From Escherichia phage 121Q: a stretch of DNA of 64,000 nt. The notes beneath the pieces were generated by a model, which ran no database searches, had not been told where the DNA came from, and worked only from the letters and a program-made list of their open reading frames with translations. Shown in pieces: positions 48,335-63,956 of the stretch. Where the stretch lies: the sequence record NC_025447.1; one strand, written 5' to 3'. The position numbers and the translations under genes were made by a program. Numbering within the stretch: the stretch's first letter is position 1; each line of letters starts with the position of its first letter.

Positions 48335-49195
48335 ATGGAGGATATAATGGCGAATTTAAAACTACTACAAGAAGCAATTGCGGCGTTTGCAAATGGCGAA
48401 CAAGATATTGCTGATAAAAAAATGCGTAAGTATTTCGTTGAGCAAGCTCAAGAAATTAACAAACAACTAGAAGAAAGCATGGAAGATGAAGACGACGATG
48501 AAGATTGTGAAGTCGAAGTTAAAGTCAAAGATGAAGAAAAGCTTGACGAAGATTTTGATGTACAACCAGACGAAGGTCTAAATGCTGAAATCGAATACAC
48601 CCTTGGTGAAGAAGATGAAAGTGCAGAAGAAGAAGTTGAATTCTCTGCTGATGCAGATGGTGACGGTGAAGACGATGTTGACGTTGAAGTGAAAGCTGAT
48701 GCTGATGTTCCTTCCGAAGACCAATGGGAATCAATCCAAGATGCTTTCCGTGGCCTACAACAAATGTTTGATGAAATCGGTGACGGTGAAGTTGATCTAG
48801 ATTCTGAAGAAGAAGTAGAAGATAGCGAAGAAGAAGTTGGCGTTGACGGTGACGACGAATTTGCTGATGTTGAATTCGGTGATGAAAAATTCGGTGAATC
48901 CTTCAAACTAGAAAAAGTTGCTCCAGTTGATAAGAAAGAAAAAGCTGGCACTCATTCCAAATCTCCAGTAGCACCAGAAGCTAAATCTCCAGTAGCAGGA
49001 GCAGAGCCAGTTAAATTCGCTAAGAAAACTGACCAAGCACCACTACTAGACCTAGATGATAAATCTGTTCTACCAAAAGATAGTCTAGATCTTGGTAAAA
49101 ATGCTCGCGGTGAAATGAAAGATGTTAAAGCACCAAAAACTACTGCATCTAATTCTAAATCACCACTAAGCAAAGCACAACCTAAACTAAAATAA
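48335..49195 (+). CDS. Highly acidic prohead core or scaffold-like protein
   Basis: 286 aa with long Asp/Glu-rich runs (EDEDDDEDCEVEVKVKDEEKLDEDFD...); GGAGGA ribosome-binding site; located between portal and protease genes. Confidence 0.5.
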   Translation: MEDIMANLKLLQEAIAAFANGEQDIADKKMRKYFVEQAQEINKQLEESMEDEDDDEDCEVEVKVKDEEKLDEDFDVQPDEGLNAEIEYTLGEEDESAEEEVEFSADADGDGEDDVDVEVKADADVPSEDQWESIQDAFRGLQQMFDEIGDGEVDLDSEEEVEDSEEEVGVDGDDEFADVEFGDEKFGESFKLEKVAPVDKKEKAGTHSKSPVAPEAKSPVAGAEPVKFAKKTDQAPLLDLDDKSVLPKDSLDLGKNARGEMKDVKAPKTTASNSKSPLSKAQPKLK

Positions 49196-49905: not shown

Positions 49906-51021
49906 ATGTCTAAATTAGAAAAGCTTCTAAAAGAATCATCTCTTTCTGATGAGGCAAAACAGCTAATTCAGGAAGCATGGAATGAAGAAAAGAATACACT
50001 AGCCGCAGAGATGCGTGAAGAAATGAAAGGCCGTTATCAGCAAGATTTGGCTGAACTAACCGAAGGTTTGAACACTATGGTTACTCAAGTCATTGCTGAA
50101 GAAATGGGTGCTGTATATGAAGAGAAAAAACGTCTCGTTGAAGATCGTGTAACTCTACGTAAAACACTAAGCAATTTCTCTGCGTTTTCAAACTCTGTTT
50201 TGGCTGAAGAAGTTAAACAAATGCGTAAAGAACGTAAGCATCTTCATGAATGCATGGGTAAATTCGTTAATTTTTCTAACGGTATCCTAGCAGAAGAGCT
50301 AAAAGAATTCCACACTGAAAAACGCCAACTAGTAGAAACTCGCGTTAAACTACTTGCTGAAGGTTCACGTCAAATTGCTGAAGCTCGTAATAACTTCATC
50401 AAACGTACATCTGAAAGTGCTGCTAAATATATTGCAGAAACCACTCAGAAGAATCTATATGCGTTGAAACAAGATCTAGTGGAAGCAAAACAAAATATGT
50501 TTGGTCGTAAAATCTTTGAAGCATTTGCTCAAGAGTTTAATGTCAAACAATTTAATGAAAACTCATTGCTACGTTCCCTAACTGAATCAATTAAATCTAA
50601 AGAAGATGAAATTGCTCAAGTTAAGCAAGAACTACATGAAACTGCTAATGCCGTTAAAGCTGCTAAAACCAAACTACGTATTATGGAAGATGCACAAGCA
50701 CGTAATGCGATTATGTCTGAACTAGTAAAACCACTAACTGCACAGCAAAAACAAATTATGGAATCCCTTCTAGCTACTTCACCTACTGAAAAGCTTAAAG
50801 AAGATTTCAGCAAGTACCATAAGTCAGTACTTAACGGTACTAAAGTAAATGAATCTGCTACCACTCGTCAAGCAGTTCAGTCTTCCGCTAAGAAAACTCT
50901 TGCAGAAGGTAAAGTAATCACTGGCAACCGTCAGGCTATTGTTGAAAGCGAAGAAATGACCGCTGACGATATGGCATTCCTAAAAGAACTAGATGTTCTT
51001 TCAGGTATCAATAAAAAATAA
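49906..51021 (+). CDS. Prohead scaffold protein (T4 gp22-like)
   Basis: 371 aa, Glu/Lys/Ala/Leu-rich and predicted alpha-helical; sits between the protease and major capsid genes. Confidence 0.6.
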   Translation: MSKLEKLLKESSLSDEAKQLIQEAWNEEKNTLAAEMREEMKGRYQQDLAELTEGLNTMVTQVIAEEMGAVYEEKKRLVEDRVTLRKTLSNFSAFSNSVLAEEVKQMRKERKHLHECMGKFVNFSNGILAEELKEFHTEKRQLVETRVKLLAEGSRQIAEARNNFIKRTSESAAKYIAETTQKNLYALKQDLVEAKQNMFGRKIFEAFAQEFNVKQFNENSLLRSLTESIKSKEDEIAQVKQELHETANAVKAAKTKLRIMEDAQARNAIMSELVKPLTAQQKQIMESLLATSPTEKLKEDFSKYHKSVLNGTKVNESATTRQAVQSSAKKTLAEGKVITGNRQAIVESEEMTADDMAFLKELDVLSGINKK

Positions 51022-51112: not shown

Positions 51113-52288
51113 ATGTCACAACTACTAAATGAATCCAAATGGGTAGCAGTAAAAGAGAAACTAGTTGAAGGTCTACAGGGTACTCGTAAGTCTGTAATGG
51201 AAACTGTTCTTGATAACCATCGTAAAGTTATGCTAACTGAATCCGCAACTTCTGGTGCAACTACCGCTGGTAACATCGCTACTCTAAACAAAGTGATTCT
51301 ACCAATTATGCGTCGTGTAATGCCAACCGTTATTGCTAACGAAATCATCGGTGTTCAACCTATGACTGGTCCAGTTGGTCAGATCCACACCCTACGTGTA
51401 CAATATGCTGATAACGCACCTGGTGTAATCGCTGGTGAAGAAATGCTTTCTCCATACAAAATCGCTAAATCTTACTCTGGTGATCTAAATGCGGATAATA
51501 GCAACCCACAAGCTGCTCCTACTAGCCAACTAGAAGGTACTATGGGTCGTCGCGTTAACATCCGTATTCTACGTGAAACTGTTGAAGCGAAATCTCGTCG
51601 TCTATCTGCACGTTGGACTGTTGAATCTGCACAAGATGCTCAATCCCAACATGGTGTTGACGTTGAAGCAGAACTAATGGCTGCAATCGCTCAAGAAGTT
51701 ACTGTAGAAATCGACCAAGAGCTACTAAGCCGTCTACGTGCACTACCTGGTGCTGCTGCTGTAACTTATGACCAATCTAAAGTTACTGGTGTTGCAACCT
51801 TCGTTGGTGATGAGCACGCTGCTCTAGCTACTCTAATTAACCGTCAAGCAAACGAAGTTGCTCGTCGTACTAAGCGTGGTGCTGCAAACTGGGCTGTTGT
51901 TTCCCCAACTGCACTAACCATTCTACAATCTGCTACTACTTCTAGCTTTGCACGTACCACTGAAGGTACTTTTGAAGCACCAACTAACGTTAAGTTTGTA
52001 GGTACTCTAAACAGCACTATGCGTATTTTCGTTGATACCTATGCTAGTGATGCAGAAGATATTCTAATTGGTTATAAAGGAAATGCGGAAACTGATGCTG
52101 GTGTATTCTATTGCCCATACATCCCACTAATGGCTTCCGGTACTGTAATGGACCCTAACACTGGGGAACTCGTTACAACTTTCTTAACCAGATACGGGTA
52201 TGTTCAGTTGACCGATAGCACCAGTTCACTAGGTAACGCTGCGGACTACTACAGCAAAATCGCTATCAAAAACGTTACTTTCATGTAA
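51113..52288 (+). CDS. Major capsid protein (T4 gp23-like)
   Basis: RVMPTVIANEIIGVQPMTGPVGQIHTLRVQY and RILRETVEAKSRRLSARWTVESAQDAQSQHGVDVEAEL align with T4 gp23 (RRAIPNLIAFDICGVQPMNSPTGQVFALRAVY; RIDKQVIEAKSRQLKAAYSIELAQDLRAVHGMDADAEL) as recalled. Confidence 0.9.
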   Translation: MSQLLNESKWVAVKEKLVEGLQGTRKSVMETVLDNHRKVMLTESATSGATTAGNIATLNKVILPIMRRVMPTVIANEIIGVQPMTGPVGQIHTLRVQYADNAPGVIAGEEMLSPYKIAKSYSGDLNADNSNPQAAPTSQLEGTMGRRVNIRILRETVEAKSRRLSARWTVESAQDAQSQHGVDVEAELMAAIAQEVTVEIDQELLSRLRALPGAAAVTYDQSKVTGVATFVGDEHAALATLINRQANEVARRTKRGAANWAVVSPTALTILQSATTSSFARTTEGTFEAPTNVKFVGTLNSTMRIFVDTYASDAEDILIGYKGNAETDAGVFYCPYIPLMASGTVMDPNTGELVTTFLTRYGYVQLTDSTSSLGNAADYYSKIAIKNVTFM

Positions 52289-56904: not shown

Positions 56905-59900
56905 ATGTATATCGATGCTTATATGGAACGTAAACGTACTGGTGATATTCTTCATGTAGTTGAACGTAAGAATGGTAAACGTATTCTACGCGAATTAGAT
57001 CCAGTATATGAATATTATGTTGAATCCCCACAAGGAACACATAAAACTGTTTATGGTACAATGGCTAAACATTTTGAGTTTCAAACTCAAGCTCAAATGA
57101 ATAAAAGTGTAGAGCAACACAAAAGTGAAGGTCTACGTATTTTTGAAAGTGATTGTAACATTACATTTAAAACATTAGCTAAAGAATATATGGGAAAAGG
57201 TTCACCCGATTTGAACATCGTGTTCTTCGATATCGAGACTGATTTCCATAAGAAATTTGGTTATGCTCCACCATCAGACCCGTTTAACCGAGTAACCGCT
57301 ATTTCTCTATATCAATCATGGACTGGAAAGGATTATGTACTTACTTTACCACCTGCTGATATGGAAATTTATGAAGCACAAGATATTGTTCGCCAACTAA
57401 ATGAAGAAACAAACGATCCTAACAGTACTGTAATTTTATATACAGACGAAAAGGAAATGTTTATGGAATTCTTTAGTTTAATTGATGATTCTGATGTTAT
57501 TTCAGGATGGAATAGTGAATTCTTTGATATTCCATATATGATCAATCGAACTAAAAAAATCTTCAATGAAGCAACAACTGCTCGTTGGTGTTTATGGAAT
57601 AAAAAACCAAATTCACGTGAAGCAGACAACTTTGGTAAAACTGTTCAAACATATGATCTGGTAGGTCGCGTCCATCTTGATTATTTGGCTTTGTATAAGA
57701 AACATGCTGGTCAAGTTGAACAATCTTATAAACTAGATTATATTGCTGAAAAAGTAACTAAAGAAAATAAAGTATCATATGAAGGTTCATTGGATAAACT
57801 TTACAGAGAGGATTACATTACTTTCTTGCGTTATTCTAAACAGGATAGTATTCTTCTTAAAAAGATTGATGCTAAATGTGACTATATCAACCTACACAAT
57901 CGACTTGCACACAAAGAATGTGTACTTATCAGTACAACAATGGGTTCAGTAGCACTAATCGACACTGCTATTATCAACTTAGCACATACTCGTGGTGAAG
58001 TTGTTTTCAACAAAGCACCGAAAGATGATCTTGAGTTTGATCCAGAAATGGAATATTATGGTGAAGATGGTGAAGATGAAGATGAGAAAATTAGTGCAAA
58101 AGCAGCAGGTGCATGGGTACAAGATCCAGTACTAGGACTTGTAAGTGACCTTGGGTGTACTGACTTTAACTCTCTTTACCCTACTGTTCTACGTACTTTG
58201 GGTATGAGTACTGAATGTATTCTTGGTCAATTACGTCAAGATTACACCGATGCGTATCTTGCAGCTAAAATCCAAGAACAGAAGAACAAATCTAAATCTA
58301 AATCATTTGAACCAGATTGGACTGCGGCATGGCATGGTTTATTTGCTGCTGTTGAATTTACAATGGTTCATGAAAAGTCAGAAGAAACATTGATTGTTGA
58401 TTTAGAAGATGGGAGTTCTTTTAAAGCAACGGGCAAAGAGCTATATGATATTATTTTTGCAGAAGATAGTACTATTGTACTTAGTGCAAACGGAACACTT
58501 TTTGATAAGTCTAAGTCTGGTGTAATTCCTGACATTCTAACTCAATGGTATTCTGAACGTAAAGCACAGCAAAAAATGGTCATTGACTACAAACATATGT
58601 ATACTGATGGTTGGGAGTTTAATGGCTATGAAAAAGTCGAACCACTACTATCAAACTATACCCCTGGTACAATGTTTAGAACTAATATTCATGATAATGA
58701 TCCTGTATACTTACTTCGTAAAGAAATTGGTAAAGGACAGTGGGATGAAGTTGCTAAGTTGATTGTAGAAAACGGATTAGTACTAAAAGATGGTCGTATT
58801 TTCTGTCCTAAAGAAGAAAAAGATTACTTCAAACAACGTAGTGCTTTCTGGAAACAGAACCAACAGATTCGTAAGATTCTTCTAAACAGTCTATATGGTG
58901 CACTATTGAACAAAGGTTCTCGTTTTTTTGACAAACGTTTAGGTCAATCCGTAACATTAACTGGACGTTCTATGACCAAACATATGGCAAGTCGTATCAA
59001 TGAAATTACTACTGGTGTATATAACCACCAAGGTGGTTCAGTAATTTATGGTGATACTGACTCAGTTTACTTTAGTGTAACTCATTATCTGAAAGAACAA
59101 GGTATTCCATATAATCTATCTAAAGAAGAGATTGTTGATATGTATATTAAAATTGGTGAAGAAGTTGGTGAATCTTTCCCATCATTTATGCATGAGATGT
59201 TCAACACTGGTATTGAAAAAGGTAAGATTGTTGGTGCAGACCTTGAGATGGTTGGTTCGCGTGGCCTATTCTTGAAGAAAAAACGTTATGCAATTCTGAA
59301 GTACTGGGAAGATGGGTTCCGTAAAGATATTGATGGTAAACCAGGTGAAATCAAAGCGATGGGTCTTGAAATTAAACGCTCAGACACGCCAAAATACATC
59401 CAGAACTTCCTAGAAGAGACTCTAATCGCATTACTGGTAGGTGAGAGTGAACAACAGCTAAAACAGCGTGTACGTGAGTTTAAGGACGTATTTAAGGATA
59501 TGCCTGTACATGAAAAAGGTTCACCAAAAACTGTAAAAAACTACACTAATTTAGAGGCTGAATATCAGCTAACTGGTAAGTGTAAAGTTGGTCACGTTCT
59601 TGCTGGTATCCAATGGAACCGTCTACGTGAAGTTTATGATGATAAATCTGTTCCAGAAGTAACAGATGGAACAAAAGTAATTGTCTGTAACTTAAAAGAT
59701 AATCCTATGGGAATTAAAGCAGTTGGTTATCCAATTGACTGTGTTGAGTATCTTCCAGAATGGTTCTTGGAACTACCATTTGATACTGAAAAAATGGAAG
59801 AGATTGTTCTAACTAAAAAATTAGAGAATATTTTTGGTATTTTGGATATGGATATTGGTATTCATGAAAAAAGTACTGCGTCAGTAAACAATGGATTCTT

Positions 59901-59910
59901 CACTTGGTAA
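56905..59910 (+). CDS. Family B DNA polymerase (T4 gp43-like)
   Basis: 1001 aa; exonuclease motif VFFDIETDF; polymerase motif A DFNSLYPTVL; motif C YGDTDSVYF. Confidence 0.9.
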   Translation: MYIDAYMERKRTGDILHVVERKNGKRILRELDPVYEYYVESPQGTHKTVYGTMAKHFEFQTQAQMNKSVEQHKSEGLRIFESDCNITFKTLAKEYMGKGSPDLNIVFFDIETDFHKKFGYAPPSDPFNRVTAISLYQSWTGKDYVLTLPPADMEIYEAQDIVRQLNEETNDPNSTVILYTDEKEMFMEFFSLIDDSDVISGWNSEFFDIPYMINRTKKIFNEATTARWCLWNKKPNSREADNFGKTVQTYDLVGRVHLDYLALYKKHAGQVEQSYKLDYIAEKVTKENKVSYEGSLDKLYREDYITFLRYSKQDSILLKKIDAKCDYINLHNRLAHKECVLISTTMGSVALIDTAIINLAHTRGEVVFNKAPKDDLEFDPEMEYYGEDGEDEDEKISAKAAGAWVQDPVLGLVSDLGCTDFNSLYPTVLRTLGMSTECILGQLRQDYTDAYLAAKIQEQKNKSKSKSFEPDWTAAWHGLFAAVEFTMVHEKSEETLIVDLEDGSSFKATGKELYDIIFAEDSTIVLSANGTLFDKSKSGVIPDILTQWYSERKAQQKMVIDYKHMYTDGWEFNGYEKVEPLLSNYTPGTMFRTNIHDNDPVYLLRKEIGKGQWDEVAKLIVENGLVLKDGRIFCPKEEKDYFKQRSAFWKQNQQIRKILLNSLYGALLNKGSRFFDKRLGQSVTLTGRSMTKHMASRINEITTGVYNHQGGSVIYGDTDSVYFSVTHYLKEQGIPYNLSKEEIVDMYIKIGEEVGESFPSFMHEMFNTGIEKGKIVGADLEMVGSRGLFLKKKRYAILKYWEDGFRKDIDGKPGEIKAMGLEIKRSDTPKYIQNFLEETLIALLVGESEQQLKQRVREFKDVFKDMPVHEKGSPKTVKNYTNLEAEYQLTGKCKVGHVLAGIQWNRLREVYDDKSVPEVTDGTKVIVCNLKDNPMGIKAVGYPIDCVEYLPEWFLELPFDTEKMEEIVLTKKLENIFGILDMDIGIHEKSTASVNNGFFTW

Positions 59911-61258: not shown

Positions 61259-61465
61259 ATGCCATTATATACATATCGTTGTGAAAAAGAAGAATGCAAA
61301 CATAGCATGGAAAAAATTGTTAAAATTGCAAACCGTGATGAACCTCATGATTGTCCTAAATGTAATGGTGAAAAAACTATGAAGTTGGAAGTATTCACTC
61401 CAGGTGATAAGGGTGCTAATCTTTATTTCCGTGGAAAATGGTTTGCAAATACTGGAGGTTACTAA
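61259..61465 (+). CDS. Zinc-ribbon protein (FmdB-like)
   Basis: 68 aa; MPLYTYRCEKEEC ... CPKCNG gives two CxxC pairs. Confidence 0.5.
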   Translation: MPLYTYRCEKEECKHSMEKIVKIANRDEPHDCPKCNGEKTMKLEVFTPGDKGANLYFRGKWFANTGGY

Positions 61466-61466
61466 T

Positions 61467-61766
61467 ATGAAAATTAAAATGATTAATGATTACGTTCTTG
61501 TTCGACAAATTGAAGCACAGAATAAAAGTACTGGTGGTATTATTCTAGGTAATGTTGAACCACCATGTATTGGGATGGTAATTTCCGTTGGTCCAGGTAA
61601 AATTCTTCCGAACGGACAACTTGCAGAACATAATATTAAAGAAGGTGATATGGTTGTGTTTGGTCGTTCATCTTTGAACACACCTCTGACTGAAGATCTT
61701 GGTGGTGGTGAAGATACATATTATGTAATGAAAATCGAAGAGATTTTTGGTAAGAAAAATGGCTAA
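61467..61766 (+). CDS. GroES-like co-chaperonin (Cpn10)
   Basis: MKIKMINDYVLVRQIEAQNKSTGGIILGN...GMVISVGPGKILPNGQ...IKEGDMVVF parallels E. coli GroES ([25 protein letters not shown]...GEVLAVGNGRILENGE...VKVGDIVIF). Start set to the ATG at 61467 (GGAGG upstream). Confidence 0.75.
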   Translation: MKIKMINDYVLVRQIEAQNKSTGGIILGNVEPPCIGMVISVGPGKILPNGQLAEHNIKEGDMVVFGRSSLNTPLTEDLGGGEDTYYVMKIEEIFGKKNG

Positions 61767-62484
61767 AAAGAAATTTATTCCATTTTGGATGGTCCCTGCT
61801 CACTGGGGACTTTCTGGAAAGGCAAAAGAGATAGCTAAAGCATACTACTACAATGATGATTATGAAGCTGATATGAAAGTTGCTGAATTGACATATCTAA
61901 CTCCATATGAAGTTGAACTGGCCCAATTGGATATTAAAAAGAAATATAGCGTAATTGGAGATTTGGAATATCTAATTACAGTACTTGATGTTGAACTAAA
62001 ATATTCTAAAATTACTCGTGAACAGTATAATGTTAAAGTTCTTGATGCAAAACTAAGTACTGGTTCTATTACTGAAAAAGAATATGATATGGAAATCATT
62101 GAGTTAATGCCAGACGGTGATGAAAAAAGGCTTAAGGCTATAGAATTTGCATATCGTTATGAAGAAATCACTCAAAGTGAATATTCAAAGGAGATATATA
62201 CACTTCGAAAAGAGCCTTGGATTGATTTGGATGTGGTTCTTGATCCTGAAACAAATGAAGTTGAGTTTGTTTTTGACTATAACGAATATTTCTGGAAAAA
62301 GTTGAAAGCCGAAGGTCATCCAGGTAATGATGAAGAAGAAATCATAGATAACTTTGTTAGAGACTTGGGGCGTAAACTTGCTACGGATGATTTCAGTGAT
62401 GATTACGACACAAAGCTAGTGAGTGCGAACGAAGGATTAGACAAGCTACCTGGTTTACCTGAAGGATTTCGTTCATATAGATAA
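61747..62484 (+). CDS. Hypothetical protein
   Basis: 245-aa ORF overlapping the end of the GroES-like gene; Glu/Lys/Tyr-rich. Confidence 0.4.
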   Translation: MVRKMAKKKFIPFWMVPAHWGLSGKAKEIAKAYYYNDDYEADMKVAELTYLTPYEVELAQLDIKKKYSVIGDLEYLITVLDVELKYSKITREQYNVKVLDAKLSTGSITEKEYDMEIIELMPDGDEKRLKAIEFAYRYEEITQSEYSKEIYTLRKEPWIDLDVVLDPETNEVEFVFDYNEYFWKKLKAEGHPGNDEEEIIDNFVRDLGRKLATDDFSDDYDTKLVSANEGLDKLPGLPEGFRSYR

Positions 62485-62494
62485 AAATAAAAAA

Positions 62495-62520
62495 GGAGAG
62501 CATTTGCTCTCCTTTTCTTT
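62495..62520. terminator. Bidirectional rho-independent terminator
   Basis: Stem GGAGAGC/GCTCTCC with ATTT loop, flanked by A-run and T-run; the stem is nearly identical to the one at 16024-16042. Confidence 0.65.
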
Positions 62521-62529
62521 TGTAAAATA

Positions 62530-63219
62530 TTAAACCAATGCTGGGATGTATTGGAAAAGTTTAACACCGAAATCCCCTGCTGCATCAGCAGACTGGGAAC
62601 GTAGATAAACTTCAGTAACACCATCTTTAGCAAGTAGCGGAACACCAGTTAGATCATCAATTAGTAGACGGCCTTCTTCGGATTCAGTACTTGGTACACC
62701 TTGTGGTGATTTAAGATCTTTGTTAAAGACACCAGCACGTTCAACTAGGAAGGTTACAACGGAAGCATCAGCAATACTAACTGAACCTGCACTCAATACA
62801 CCATCAGGTGCGTTGGTGAAACCAGTAACTGGAAATACTTCAAGACCATTACCTGCGATGTTAGAGGTAGCGATGATAACCGCACGTTGTTGAACAACAT
62901 CGACAATACGTTTAACGTTAGTTTGTGCTGCATAAGATGCATTGTAATCAGCTTCTAGTGTGCCAAGAACAAATGCAGTTCCATCAATACGTTTGATACC
63001 TTTATCATTTAGATATGCTAGAATTTCTTCTGGAATATCAGTGTTTAGAAAACGTTGTAGACCAGCATAAGAAGAAACTGCACCAGTAACTAGAACGTTT
63101 ACGTTTCCTAGCTTACTGATAGCAATGGATGCTAGGGCGTTAGTGCCACAAAAGTAACCTAGAATACGTTCAAAGGAATAACCATTGATACGTTCAAAAG
63201 AAGTATTAGTATATGACAT
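62530..63219 (-). CDS. Hypothetical protein, paralog of the 63234-63833 gene
   Basis: 229 aa; shares a central block (QQRAV..., FL/FICER..VFNKD/Q) with the neighbouring gene. Confidence 0.45.
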   Translation of the reverse strand: MSYTNTSFERINGYSFERILGYFCGTNALASIAISKLGNVNVLVTGAVSSYAGLQRFLNTDIPEEILAYLNDKGIKRIDGTAFVLGTLEADYNASYAAQTNVKRIVDVVQQRAVIIATSNIAGNGLEVFPVTGFTNAPDGVLSAGSVSIADASVVTFLVERAGVFNKDLKSPQGVPSTESEEGRLLIDDLTGVPLLAKDGVTEVYLRSQSADAAGDFGVKLFQYIPALV

Positions 63220-63233
63220 AATCTATCCTCCTA

Positions 63234-63833
63234 TTATAGTTGAACAGGAAGAGCAGCACGTACTTTAATTGCTACAGCAGTAGATGCACCTGCATCACCA
63301 ACACCATCAGTACCTTGACTTACGAAAGTTTTGGTACGGAAAACTTTAGCTTGAGCGATAGACTTAGCTAGGTCAACAGTTGGATCAACTGGAGCAGGAC
63401 ATGCTGAACCAGGACGAACTTCTTGCTTGTTAAATACGTCTTGACGTTCACAGATGAAAGTCAATGCAACAGAATTAGCACCACCTGCTACATCAGCACC
63501 ACTAGTACCGAACGCAACTACGTTTGGATTAGCATTTTTGAAATCAGCAGGAATAACAACTTCTGAATCAAGAGCTAGTAGAGAGGTAGTAACTAGAACT
63601 GCACGTTGTTGTAGTAGTTGGGTAACCATGAATAGGTTATATTGAGCATTACTTAGAGCAGTTTGATACGCTTCAGCTTGAACATCAGAACCGTCAGAAG
63701 TAACTTTGGTAGTACCTAGTTCAACATCAGTTGGTAGATCGATTACGATGGTAACGAAACCGTTATTACCACCCCACCATTCGCGAGCAACGCTAGACAT
63801 ACCATAGTTACGGTTAAAAGAATTAAGACTCAT
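63234..63833 (-). CDS. Hypothetical protein, paralog of the 62530-63219 gene
   Basis: 199 aa; shared QQRAVLVTTS...TFICERQDVFNKQ block; Ala/Val/Gly-rich. Confidence 0.45.
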   Translation of the reverse strand: MSLNSFNRNYGMSSVAREWWGGNNGFVTIVIDLPTDVELGTTKVTSDGSDVQAEAYQTALSNAQYNLFMVTQLLQQRAVLVTTSLLALDSEVVIPADFKNANPNVVAFGTSGADVAGGANSVALTFICERQDVFNKQEVRPGSACPAPVDPTVDLAKSIAQAKVFRTKTFVSQGTDGVGDAGASTAVAIKVRAALPVQL

Positions 63834-63956
63834 GAAAATCTCCTTGTCAAATTTTGTGCAGGTATATCCTGCTTAAAGTTATTTATCAAAAAATATCACT
63901 AGCATTTAAATTTACTGAGATATTTAATGAATTTCTATGATATTATTTATCAAATC

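What the first reader, a model, noticed from the sequence alone, without database searches (positions are those of the whole stretch)
62530..63833. Tandem paralogous genes of unknown function at the right end
Two adjacent minus-strand genes of 229 and 199 aa share a conserved central block (QQRAV...ATS/TTS...VFP/VIP...FICER/FLVER..VFNK) but have divergent termini. I could not assign a function. Duplicated small genes downstream of a replication and chaperone cluster could be structural or could be a diversifying accessory pair.
Basis: seen in the sequence. Interest (0 to 1): 0.45.

Follow-up and report, generated by a model that had tools for sequence, protein, structure and literature searches.

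The report
Abundant paralogous jumbo-phage virion protein pair
The two neighbouring genes are real, full-length duplicates that encode two of the most abundant particle proteins of RaK2/121Q-type giant phages; they were already detected by proteomics, and their exact place in the particle (most likely the head surface, probably not the tail tube) is still unknown.

Summary
ORFs 63234-63833(-) (199 aa) and 62530-63219(-) (229 aa) are significant paralogs (BLASTP E=8e-9). Both match phrog_9326 over their full length (E~1e-86).

The window is an Asteriusvirus jumbo coliphage, 99.9% identical to G17 over the 1.6-kb query. The genes correspond to phAPEC6 gp210/gp211, RaK2 ORF107w/106w and CBB_271/270. 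All were found in virions by mass spectrometry, with coverage comparable to or above the major capsid protein. The pair and its relatedness were noted in 2013.

New here:
- Homology runs end to end; the long copy carries a ~32-aa helical insert.
- The short-then-long pair and its neighbourhood are conserved in every relative examined.
- Selection is purifying (dN/dS ~0.2), so this is not a diversifying pair.
- The pair forms a late operon: T4-like ATAAATA promoter motifs, a covarying 5' hairpin, two ribosome-binding sites and a bidirectional terminator.
- Codon usage is the most capsid-protein-like among the 59 genes compared.
- The predicted fold is an alpha+beta sandwich with no solved structural relative.
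- RaK2's tail-tube guess is disfavoured, because tube-family paralogs sit next to the sheath gene.

Best guess (~50%): unprocessed capsid-surface accessory proteins acting as a 1:1 pair.

The parts
63234..63833 (-). Short paralog, 199 aa, 20.9 kDa, pI 4.76. Corresponds to G17_00306, PBECO4 gp504, phAPEC6 gp210; ortholog of RaK2 ORF107w and CBB_271.
   Evidence: ORF. phrog_9326 E=1.3e-86. Annotation transfers. Virion MS. AF2 model pLDDT 86, pTM 0.81, alpha+beta sandwich. pI and composition.
62530..63219 (-). Long paralog, 229 aa, 24.3 kDa, pI 4.64. Corresponds to G17_00307, PBECO4 gp505, phAPEC6 gp211; ortholog of RaK2 ORF106w and CBB_270. Same core as the short paralog plus a ~32-aa helical insert (about residues 47-78).
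   Evidence: ORF. phrog_9326 E=4.5e-86. BLASTP against the short paralog E=8e-9. Alignment A2. AF2 pLDDT 80.5. Virion MS.
63878..63890 (-). Proximal late-promoter-like motif TTTGATAAATAAC (T4-type ATAAATA core), about 45 nt upstream of the short gene's ATG. Conserved across genera.
   Evidence: Coordinates. Conserved in 9 of 10 aligned leaders from Asterius-, Alcyoneus-, Mimas- and Eneladusvirus, Munch, XaC1 and Vibrio phage. ATAAATA was proposed as the late promoter of CBB and GAP32 structural genes (PMC5259590). The transcription start was not mapped; this is an inference.
63936..63948 (-). Distal exact 13-mer AAATAATATCATA. The same motif lies 38 nt upstream of the major capsid gene and 24 nt upstream of the 286-aa prohead-cluster gene.
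   Evidence: 4 exact copies in the window against 0.05 expected; 0 of 100 shuffles reached 4. Alignment of the four sites. The motif is specific to Asteriusvirus; it is absent from the RaK2, CBB and Vibrio phage loci.
63858..63872 (-). 5'-leader hairpin GCAGG-ATATA-CCTGC (5 bp, about -7.8 kcal/mol), between the proximal promoter motif and the ribosome-binding site. Likely a 5' mRNA stabiliser.
   Evidence: Coordinates and energy. Covariation across 10 phages: 94% of cells paired, 3 of 5 pairs with compensatory changes, 0 of 500 shuffles as high, slid registers at most 44% paired. The stabiliser role is inferred from general knowledge of 5' stem-loops.
63840..63845 (-). Shine-Dalgarno AAGGAG of the short gene.
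   Evidence: Sequence. Conserved in the leader alignment.
63227..63231 (-). Shine-Dalgarno GGAGG of the long gene, inside the 14-nt spacer. The two genes form a bicistronic unit.
   Evidence: Sequence. No terminator was found between the genes.
62489..62518 (.). Bidirectional intrinsic terminator, shared with the convergent 245-aa gene (61747-62484, +).
   Evidence: Terminator scan on both strands: 13-bp and 11-bp stems followed by T runs. A terminator is annotated at this position in G17 and at the equivalent position in Munch.

Best explanation
The two genes are an ancient, strictly conserved tandem duplication. They form a bicistronic late operon in RaK2-like (~350 kb) jumbo myophages.

SHOWN:
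- They encode full-length paralogs with an alpha+beta sandwich core and a conserved, flexible N-terminal arm.
- Both proteins are abundant, unprocessed components of purified virions in three phages.
- Their codon usage matches that of the major capsid protein, and one upstream motif is shared with the capsid gene.

INFERRED:
- Transcription starts from T4-type ATAAATA late promoters.
- The transcript begins with a conserved hairpin that stabilises it.
- Two strong ribosome-binding sites 14 nt apart yield roughly equimolar products.

MOST LIKELY ROLE (inferred, not shown): the two proteins act together, plausibly as a 1:1 hetero-pair, as outer accessory proteins of the T=28 capsid. They could be the unassigned elongated network seen at 10 A in phAPEC6/121Q, which bridges capsomers across local two-fold axes with one copy per major capsid protein. 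Alternatively they could be the dimer-shaped anchor at each hexamer centre. In this reading they bind the mature shell through the conserved N-arm, much as Soc or Hoc bind T4. They are probably not the tail tube.
For: Identity and paralogy.

Virion presence and abundance:
- phAPEC6: 69.8% and 69.9% coverage, against MCP 74.9% and sheath 68%.
- CBB_270: 91.3%, the highest coverage in that proteome.
- RaK2: 53.5% and 55.4%; both are discussed with the major proteins of the virion gel (Fig. 5) and migrate at their predicted mass.

No propeptide removal: the 91.32% coverage of CBB_270 is only reachable if the peptide covering residues 5-20 was observed.

Expression class:
- CTA/Leu fraction is 0.73 and 0.68. 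The MCP has 0.83 and the scaffold 0.57; every other window ORF except the 286-aa prohead gene (0.78) is at or below 0.46. The sheath has 0.51 and the tube-like genes 0.19-0.33.
- In an all-codon likelihood ratio against the MCP, the short gene ranks 1st and the long gene 3rd of 59 genes.
- The exact 13-mer is shared with the MCP and prohead-gene promoters.

[quoted passage not shown] 121Q shows the same features.

Against a DNA-binding internal role: both proteins are acidic and low in charge, with positive GRAVY.

The tail-tube slot is taken: phAPEC6 gp275c, gp274c and gp273c, directly downstream of the sheath gene, match phrog_4542 or phrog_13438 'tail tube protein' (E from 1e-80 to 1e-227), and gp275c and gp273c weakly match the general tail-tube family phrog_45.

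Strict co-occurrence, fixed order and purifying selection fit an obligate two-component structure.
Against: - Nothing places either protein on the capsid directly. MS sequence coverage is not a copy number, and codon bias is only a proxy for expression.
- Other well-covered small virion proteins (phAPEC6 gp347, gp306c, gp253) compete for the same unassigned densities.
- The phAPEC6 authors could not exclude that the surface ridge is part of the MCP itself.
- 121Q-type heads also contain a large inner body that needs hundreds of protein copies.
- The hetero-pair idea rests only on co-occurrence and similar coverage. No complex was modelled.
Confidence: 0.5

Rival explanations
1. Inner-body or internal head proteins. 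The pair would build or coat the 91 x 18 nm proteinaceous inner body seen inside 121Q and phAPEC6 heads, as the paralogous inner-body protein families do in phiKZ.
For: The inner body exists in this phage group and its components are unidentified. By my own estimate from its dimensions, it would need several hundred copies of a 20-25 kDa protein, which fits the abundance and MCP-like codon usage. From my own knowledge, phiKZ inner-body proteins also form paralog families and are encoded away from the main head cluster. The conserved N-terminal arm could be a targeting signal.
Against: The proteins are not processed. RaK2 gp106w and gp107w run at their predicted mass, and residues 5-20 of CBB_270 are present in virions. 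By contrast, T4 and phiKZ internal proteins are typically trimmed by the prohead protease (own knowledge). Both proteins are acidic, low in charge and slightly hydrophobic, with no DNA-binding character. They are not encoded in the portal-protease-scaffold-MCP cluster, unlike the 286-aa gene.
Confidence: 0.2
2. Tail component. Either the tail tube, as the RaK2 authors suggested for one of gp106w/gp107w, or a sheath-associated decoration or anchor for the 'hairy' fibres.
For: The RaK2 paper proposed a tail-tube role from size, predicted beta content and abundance, and labelled both proteins 'putative tail protein'. phAPEC6 tails carry unassigned decoration proteins and fibre anchors.
Confidence: 0.12
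3. Diversifying accessory or host-interaction pair. This is the first reader's alternative: a rapidly evolving, dispensable duplicated cassette.
For: Tandem duplication, and a location outside the main structural module, between replication genes.
Against: The 199-aa protein is 100% identical across 17 listed phage records, with 20 records at >=99%. dN/dS is 0.18-0.24. The short+long pair and its neighbourhood are kept in every lineage sampled, including a Vibrio phage; distant metagenomic relatives keep the tandem pair and neighbourhood. Eleven columns are invariant across both paralog types.
Confidence: 0.02
4. Abundant late non-virion proteins that co-purify with particles, for example a separate self-assembling shell or lattice.
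Against: The pair was recovered with very high coverage in three independent CsCl or gradient-purified preparations from three genera. It forms distinct stained bands in the RaK2 virion gel. The fold match is generic ferredoxin-like and far below family level.
Confidence: 0.04

Closest known systems
RaK2 gp107w/gp106w, CBB_271/CBB_270, GAP32 gp265/gp264, phAPEC6 gp210/gp211 (phrog_9326, 'virion structural protein')
   Same: These are direct orthologs; the phAPEC6 short protein is 100% identical. They share the tandem order, the neighbourhood (RNaseH on one side, the ORF105-like gene and GroES on the other) and virion detection by MS.
   Different: Nothing differs in kind, because this is the same gene pair. 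The published functional labels are not supported here: 'putative tail protein / tail tube' for RaK2 and 'hemagglutinin repeat-containing protein' for phAPEC6 gp211.
T4 Soc and Hoc (capsid decoration proteins of a T4-like head)
   Same: The proposed mode of action is the same: late-expressed, unprocessed, very abundant small proteins that bind the outside of a gp23-type shell, between capsomers (Soc) or at hexamer centres (Hoc). From my own knowledge of T4, soc and hoc are also encoded away from the head gene cluster, each under its own late promoter.
   Different: There is no sequence or fold similarity. Here there are two paralogs of 21 and 24 kDa rather than two unrelated proteins of 9 and 40 kDa. 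Capsid location is not demonstrated.
T4 gp19-type tail tube proteins (phrog_45, phrog_4542)
   Same: Similar size (20-25 kDa), abundance in virions and beta-rich regions. These were the basis of the 2013 suggestion.
   Different: No profile match. The predicted fold differs. The genes are not next to the sheath gene, whereas genuine tube-family paralogs are.
phiKZ inner-body protein families
   Same: Paralogous, abundant head-associated proteins in a jumbo phage that has an inner body (the phiKZ details are from my own knowledge).
   Different: No sequence similarity was detected. The pair is not proteolytically processed and is acidic with low charge.

Membership tests
phrog_9326 (RaK2-like 'virion structural protein' family) | Full-length match to the family profile | tested here: met
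   229 aa: E=4.5e-86, residues 3-229 on profile positions 1-195 of 195. 199 aa: E=1.3e-86, residues 1-199 on 1-195 of 195.
phrog_9326 (RaK2-like 'virion structural protein' family) | Physical presence in purified virions | not testable with these tools
   Taken from published MS on identical or orthologous proteins: phAPEC6, RaK2, CBB. Not measured for this isolate.
Myophage tail tube (T4 gp19-like; phrog_45 / phrog_4542) | Sequence or profile similarity to tube proteins | tested here: not met
   No tube family among the PHROG hits of the pair. hhalign of the pair family against phAPEC6 gp275c/274c/273c gives probability 0.1%.
Myophage tail tube (T4 gp19-like; phrog_45 / phrog_4542) | Tube/Hcp-type beta-sandwich fold | tested here: not met
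Myophage tail tube (T4 gp19-like; phrog_45 / phrog_4542) | Gene adjacent to the tail sheath gene | tested here: not met
   In phAPEC6 the sheath gene gp277c is followed by the tube-family genes gp275c, gp274c and gp273c. The pair lies about 80 kb away, between RNaseH and GroES.
Capsid decoration / cement proteins (functional class) | Located on the outer capsid surface at symmetric sites | not testable with these tools
   Unassigned outer densities exist in phAPEC6 and 121Q at 10 A. No map or model fitting was available.
Capsid decoration / cement proteins (functional class) | Copy number of the order of the major capsid protein | tested here: inconclusive
   Only proxies are available. MS coverage equals or exceeds that of the MCP. 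Codon usage is the most MCP-like of 59 genes and stronger than the sheath's. A promoter motif is shared with the MCP gene.
Capsid decoration / cement proteins (functional class) | Fold shared with a known decoration family (beta-tulip, Ig-like, OB, jellyroll, Soc) | tested here: not met
T4-type internal proteins / phiKZ-type inner-body proteins | N-terminal targeting peptide removed by the prohead protease | tested here: not met
   The coverage arithmetic for CBB_270 requires that the peptide covering residues 5-20 was observed. The RaK2 proteins migrate at their predicted mass.
T4-type internal proteins / phiKZ-type inner-body proteins | Location inside the head, embedded in DNA | not testable with these tools
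   An acidic pI (4.6-4.8) and low charge argue weakly against DNA binding.
Hemagglutinin-repeat proteins (GenBank label of phAPEC6 gp211) | Match to a hemagglutinin repeat model | tested here: not met
   Pfam at E up to 10 returns only a sub-threshold GLMA_C hit (12.8 bits against a cutoff of 27). NCBIfam returns nothing relevant.

The most novel reading that the evidence does not exclude
The two paralogs assemble as a 1:1 heterodimeric cement of a previously unseen alpha+beta fold. This cement would form the hexagonal inter-capsomer network (about 810 copies of each protein), or the dimeric hexamer-centre anchors, of the T=28 capsid of RaK2/121Q-type jumbo phages. It would be a two-gene decoration system with no relative among solved decoration proteins, and it would substitute for the insertion domain that the small (37 kDa mature) gp23-type capsid protein lacks.
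Probability: 0.35. Interest if true: 0.5.

Novelty: already known. Interest (0 to 1): 0.3.

Why it matters
The pair is among the most abundant components of the ~350-kb RaK2/121Q-type phages. It is conserved in every member of the group, yet it has no assigned place in the particle and no solved structural relative.

Two cryo-EM studies left major capsid densities unassigned: a network with one copy per capsid protein, and hexamer-centre anchors for the 'hairy' fibres. Naming the genes behind them would explain how a small T4-type capsid protein builds a stable T=28 shell. It would also give handles for display or engineering on therapeutic jumbo phages.

The practical result here is modest. 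It corrects two misleading database labels ('tail tube/tail protein' and 'hemagglutinin repeat') and narrows the candidates. For a genome scan, this is a known pair of virion genes, not a new system.

Tried and rejected
- Sequence searches for a known function found nothing: Pfam, NCBIfam, PDB by sequence and PDB by family profile.
- Fold searches of the 199-aa model:
  - Foldseek against the PDB found nothing with E below 0.1.
  - BFVD returned only unnamed relatives, apparently from Vibrio phage 2.275.O and marine viruses.
- The tail-tube hypothesis from RaK2 (2013) was tested and rejected.
- The diversifying-pair idea was rejected.
- The convergent 245-aa virion protein (61747-62484) is not a third paralog (BLASTP E=2.4).
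- phiKp24, the only high-resolution Klebsiella jumbo-phage capsid found, has no decoration proteins and did not appear among the family's sequence or profile hits, so it is uninformative.
- Literature searches for a high-resolution Asteriusvirus or RaK2-like capsid found none. The Sharanji paper contains none of the searched terms on proteome, promoter, tail tube or decoration.
- The sigma-70 promoter scan of the region was at chance level (11 found against 11.6 expected).
- No tRNA genes in the window explain the CTA-Leu preference.

Full report
**What is there**

The window's right end carries two minus-strand ORFs, 63234-63833 (199 aa) and 62530-63219 (229 aa). They are 14 nt apart and each is preceded by a strong Shine-Dalgarno site. 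BLASTP of one against the other gives 35% identity over 89 residues, E=8e-9. Both match the same phage protein family, phrog_9326 'virion structural protein', over their whole length (E about 1e-86).

**Which phage**

The 1.6-kb region is 99.9% identical to Escherichia phage vB_EcoM_G17 and Sharanji, and about 99% identical to PBECO4, phAPEC6 and other Asteriusvirus jumbo phages. The genes correspond to G17_00306/00307, PBECO4 gp504/gp505 (RefSeq: 'virion structural protein') and phAPEC6 gp210/gp211.

**Extent of homology**

Database searches returned 29 and 74 clusters. A 77-sequence alignment shows that the two types align from end to end.
- Eleven columns are invariant across both types: R8, G11, G22, N24, N66, Q76, R77, V79, S84, E129 and R130.
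- K190 and P196 are nearly invariant.
- The 'divergent termini' are thus an impression from a single pair.
- The length difference is a ~32-residue insert in the long type. AlphaFold2 models it as two short helices preceding the long core helix.

The models are confident (pLDDT 86 and 80.5, pTM 0.81 and 0.76). They show a disordered but conserved N-terminal arm of about 20 residues, followed by a beta-alpha-beta-beta-beta-alpha-beta sandwich with a 26-residue helix.

**Distribution and age**

A profile search of 1.84 billion representative proteins found only 42 family representatives. tblastn of the phage collection found 72 records. All are ~350-kb RaK2-like jumbo phages: Asterius-, Alcyoneus-, Mimas- and Eneladusvirus, Munch/7t3, XaC1/XbC2 and Vibrio phage 2.275.O.

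In every locus inspected the arrangement is the same. Terminase and RNaseH lie on one strand, then short followed by long on the other, then an ORF105-like gene and GroES converging. This holds even in the most distant metagenomic relatives.

Subfamily HMMs assign one short-type and one long-type copy per genome. The Vibrio phage has a third, short-like copy. In the most divergent lineage both copies score only as long-type.

The 199-aa protein is 100% identical in 17 listed isolates, with 20 records in the >=99% identity band. dN/dS against Ecwhy_1 is 0.24 for the short gene and 0.18 for the long gene. This is a core, purified pair, not a diversifying cassette.

**What is already known**

[quoted passage not shown] It discussed them with the major proteins of the virion gel, reported no cleavage, and guessed that one might be the tail tube. 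Its supplement lists 55.4% and 53.5% coverage. One search confirms orthology.
- CBB_270 and CBB_271 have 91.3% coverage (the highest in that proteome) and 56.4%.
- phAPEC6 gp211 and gp210 have 69.9% and 69.8%, next to the MCP at 74.9% and the sheath at 68%.

The observation itself is therefore not new.

**Testing the tail-tube idea**

In phAPEC6 the sheath gene gp277c is followed by gp275c, gp274c and gp273c. These match PHROG tail-tube families (phrog_4542 or phrog_13438) at E from 1e-80 to 1e-227, and gp275c and gp273c weakly match the general tail-tube family phrog_45. All three were found in virions.

**Expression anatomy**

Upstream of the short gene lies TTTGATAAATAAC (63878-63890). Its ATAAATA core is the late-promoter motif proposed for CBB and GAP32 structural genes, and it resembles T4's TATAAATA. 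This motif is conserved in 9 of 10 aligned leaders across genera.

It is followed by a 5-bp hairpin (63858-63872, -7.8 kcal/mol) whose stem covaries. 94% of cells are paired, 3 of 5 pairs show compensatory changes, 0 of 500 shuffles score as high, and slid registers reach at most 44% paired.

Farther upstream (63936-63948) is an exact 13-mer, AAATAATATCATA. It occurs only four times in the window (0.05 expected). Two of the other copies lie just upstream of the major capsid gene and of the 286-aa prohead-cluster gene. A bidirectional terminator at 62489-62518 closes the operon.

The transcription start and the stabilising role of the hairpin are inferred, not shown.

**Abundance proxies**

The unusual preference for CTA-Leu (and ATC-Ile) separates five genes from the other 41 window ORFs. 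The fractions are MCP 0.83, the 286-aa gene 0.78, short 0.73, long 0.68 and scaffold 0.57. All others are at or below 0.46. The sheath has 0.51 and the tube-like genes 0.19-0.33.

In an all-codon likelihood ratio with the MCP as reference, the short gene ranks first and the long gene third of 59 genes. The sheath scores negative. This points to an expression level at capsid rather than tail scale.

**Processing and chemistry**

The 91.32% coverage of CBB_270 equals every tryptic peptide of 6 aa or more except the C-terminal heptapeptide. The peptide covering residues 5-20 must therefore have been seen, so no N-terminal propeptide is removed. This agrees with the RaK2 gel. Both proteins are acidic (pI 4.76 and 4.64), low in charge and slightly hydrophobic.

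**Most likely role**

Cryo-EM of phAPEC6 at 10 A, and of 121Q, shows two unassigned capsid features. [quoted passage not shown] The other is a dimer-shaped protein at each hexamer centre that anchors fibres.

A pair of same-fold paralogs fits either density well. They are made in near-equal amounts, are as abundant as the MCP by every proxy, are unprocessed and acidic, and carry a conserved flexible arm. I therefore favour an outer capsid accessory role (~50%), working like T4 Soc or Hoc but without membership of any known decoration family.

The main rival is the inner body of these heads (~20%). Abundance fits that role, but the lack of processing and the low charge do not. Other tail roles (~12%) and co-purifying non-virion assemblies (~4%) remain possible. 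The diversifying-pair idea is effectively excluded.

**Verdict**

This is a real, well-conserved and already published pair of abundant virion proteins whose location is unknown. The scan finding is correct as an observation and ordinary in kind. The residual interest lies in the unassigned capsid densities of T=28 jumbo phages.

Noticed in passing
window 58444-58456 (-): The fourth exact copy of the late-promoter-like 13-mer AAATAATATCATA lies antisense inside the DNA polymerase gene (56905-59910, +). It could drive a late antisense transcript across an early/middle gene.
   Followed up: no
window 61747-62484 (+): A 245-aa, very acidic and highly charged protein (35 K+R, 52 D+E). It corresponds to RaK2 ORF105 and PBECO4 gp506, labelled 'virion structural protein' (21.7% MS coverage in RaK2). 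The first possible start of the listed ORF (TTG at 61747) overlaps the end of the GroES gene; the annotated CDS in G17 and PBECO4 begins slightly downstream and also overlaps it. The gene converges on the pair and shares its terminator. It is not a paralog of the pair.
   Followed up: partly
window 48335-49195 (+): A 286-aa gene between the portal and prohead protease genes (PBECO4 gp521, apparently phAPEC6 gp228c). It shares both the exact promoter 13-mer and the extreme MCP-like codon usage (CTA/Leu 0.78). It is probably a very abundant prohead core component.
   Followed up: partly
window-wide; examples 51113-52288, 49906-51021, 62530-63833: CTA, a rare Leu codon in E. coli, is the dominant Leu codon only in the most highly expressed late genes (68-83% in the MCP, the 286-aa gene and the pair; 57% in the scaffold). 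It makes up 6-46% of Leu codons elsewhere. No tRNA gene lies in the window, so a phage tRNA-Leu(UAG) elsewhere in the genome is a likely explanation.
   Followed up: partly
L005 43644-46307 (phAPEC6 gp273c-gp275c): A second paralog series: three tail-tube-family proteins (228, 258 and 364 aa) in a row directly downstream of the sheath gene. All three were detected in virions.
   Followed up: partly
L005 36565-37890 (phAPEC6 gp265c): A MoxR-type ATPase found in the virion proteome has MCP-like codon usage. It is the only non-head gene with a positive score in the codon likelihood ranking.
   Followed up: no
L008 1135-3206 (Vibrio phage 2.275.O NVP2275O_488/487/486): This distant relative carries three family members in tandem. 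The extra, short-like copy (488) has a C-terminal extension and its own ATAAATA motif plus leader hairpin.
   Followed up: partly
L010 1-16776 (metagenomic relative): The most divergent relatives keep the tandem pair and its RNaseH/terminase neighbourhood. They also encode a Cpn60/GroEL-type chaperonin and a two-ORF terminase. Both of their copies score only with the long-type HMM.
   Followed up: partly
window 61259-61465 (+) and 62530-63219 (-): Two database labels look spurious. The 68-aa zinc-ribbon protein is called 'type I antifreeze protein' in 121Q, as noted in the G17 record. phAPEC6 gp211 is called 'hemagglutinin repeat-containing protein', and no such domain is detectable.
   Followed up: partly
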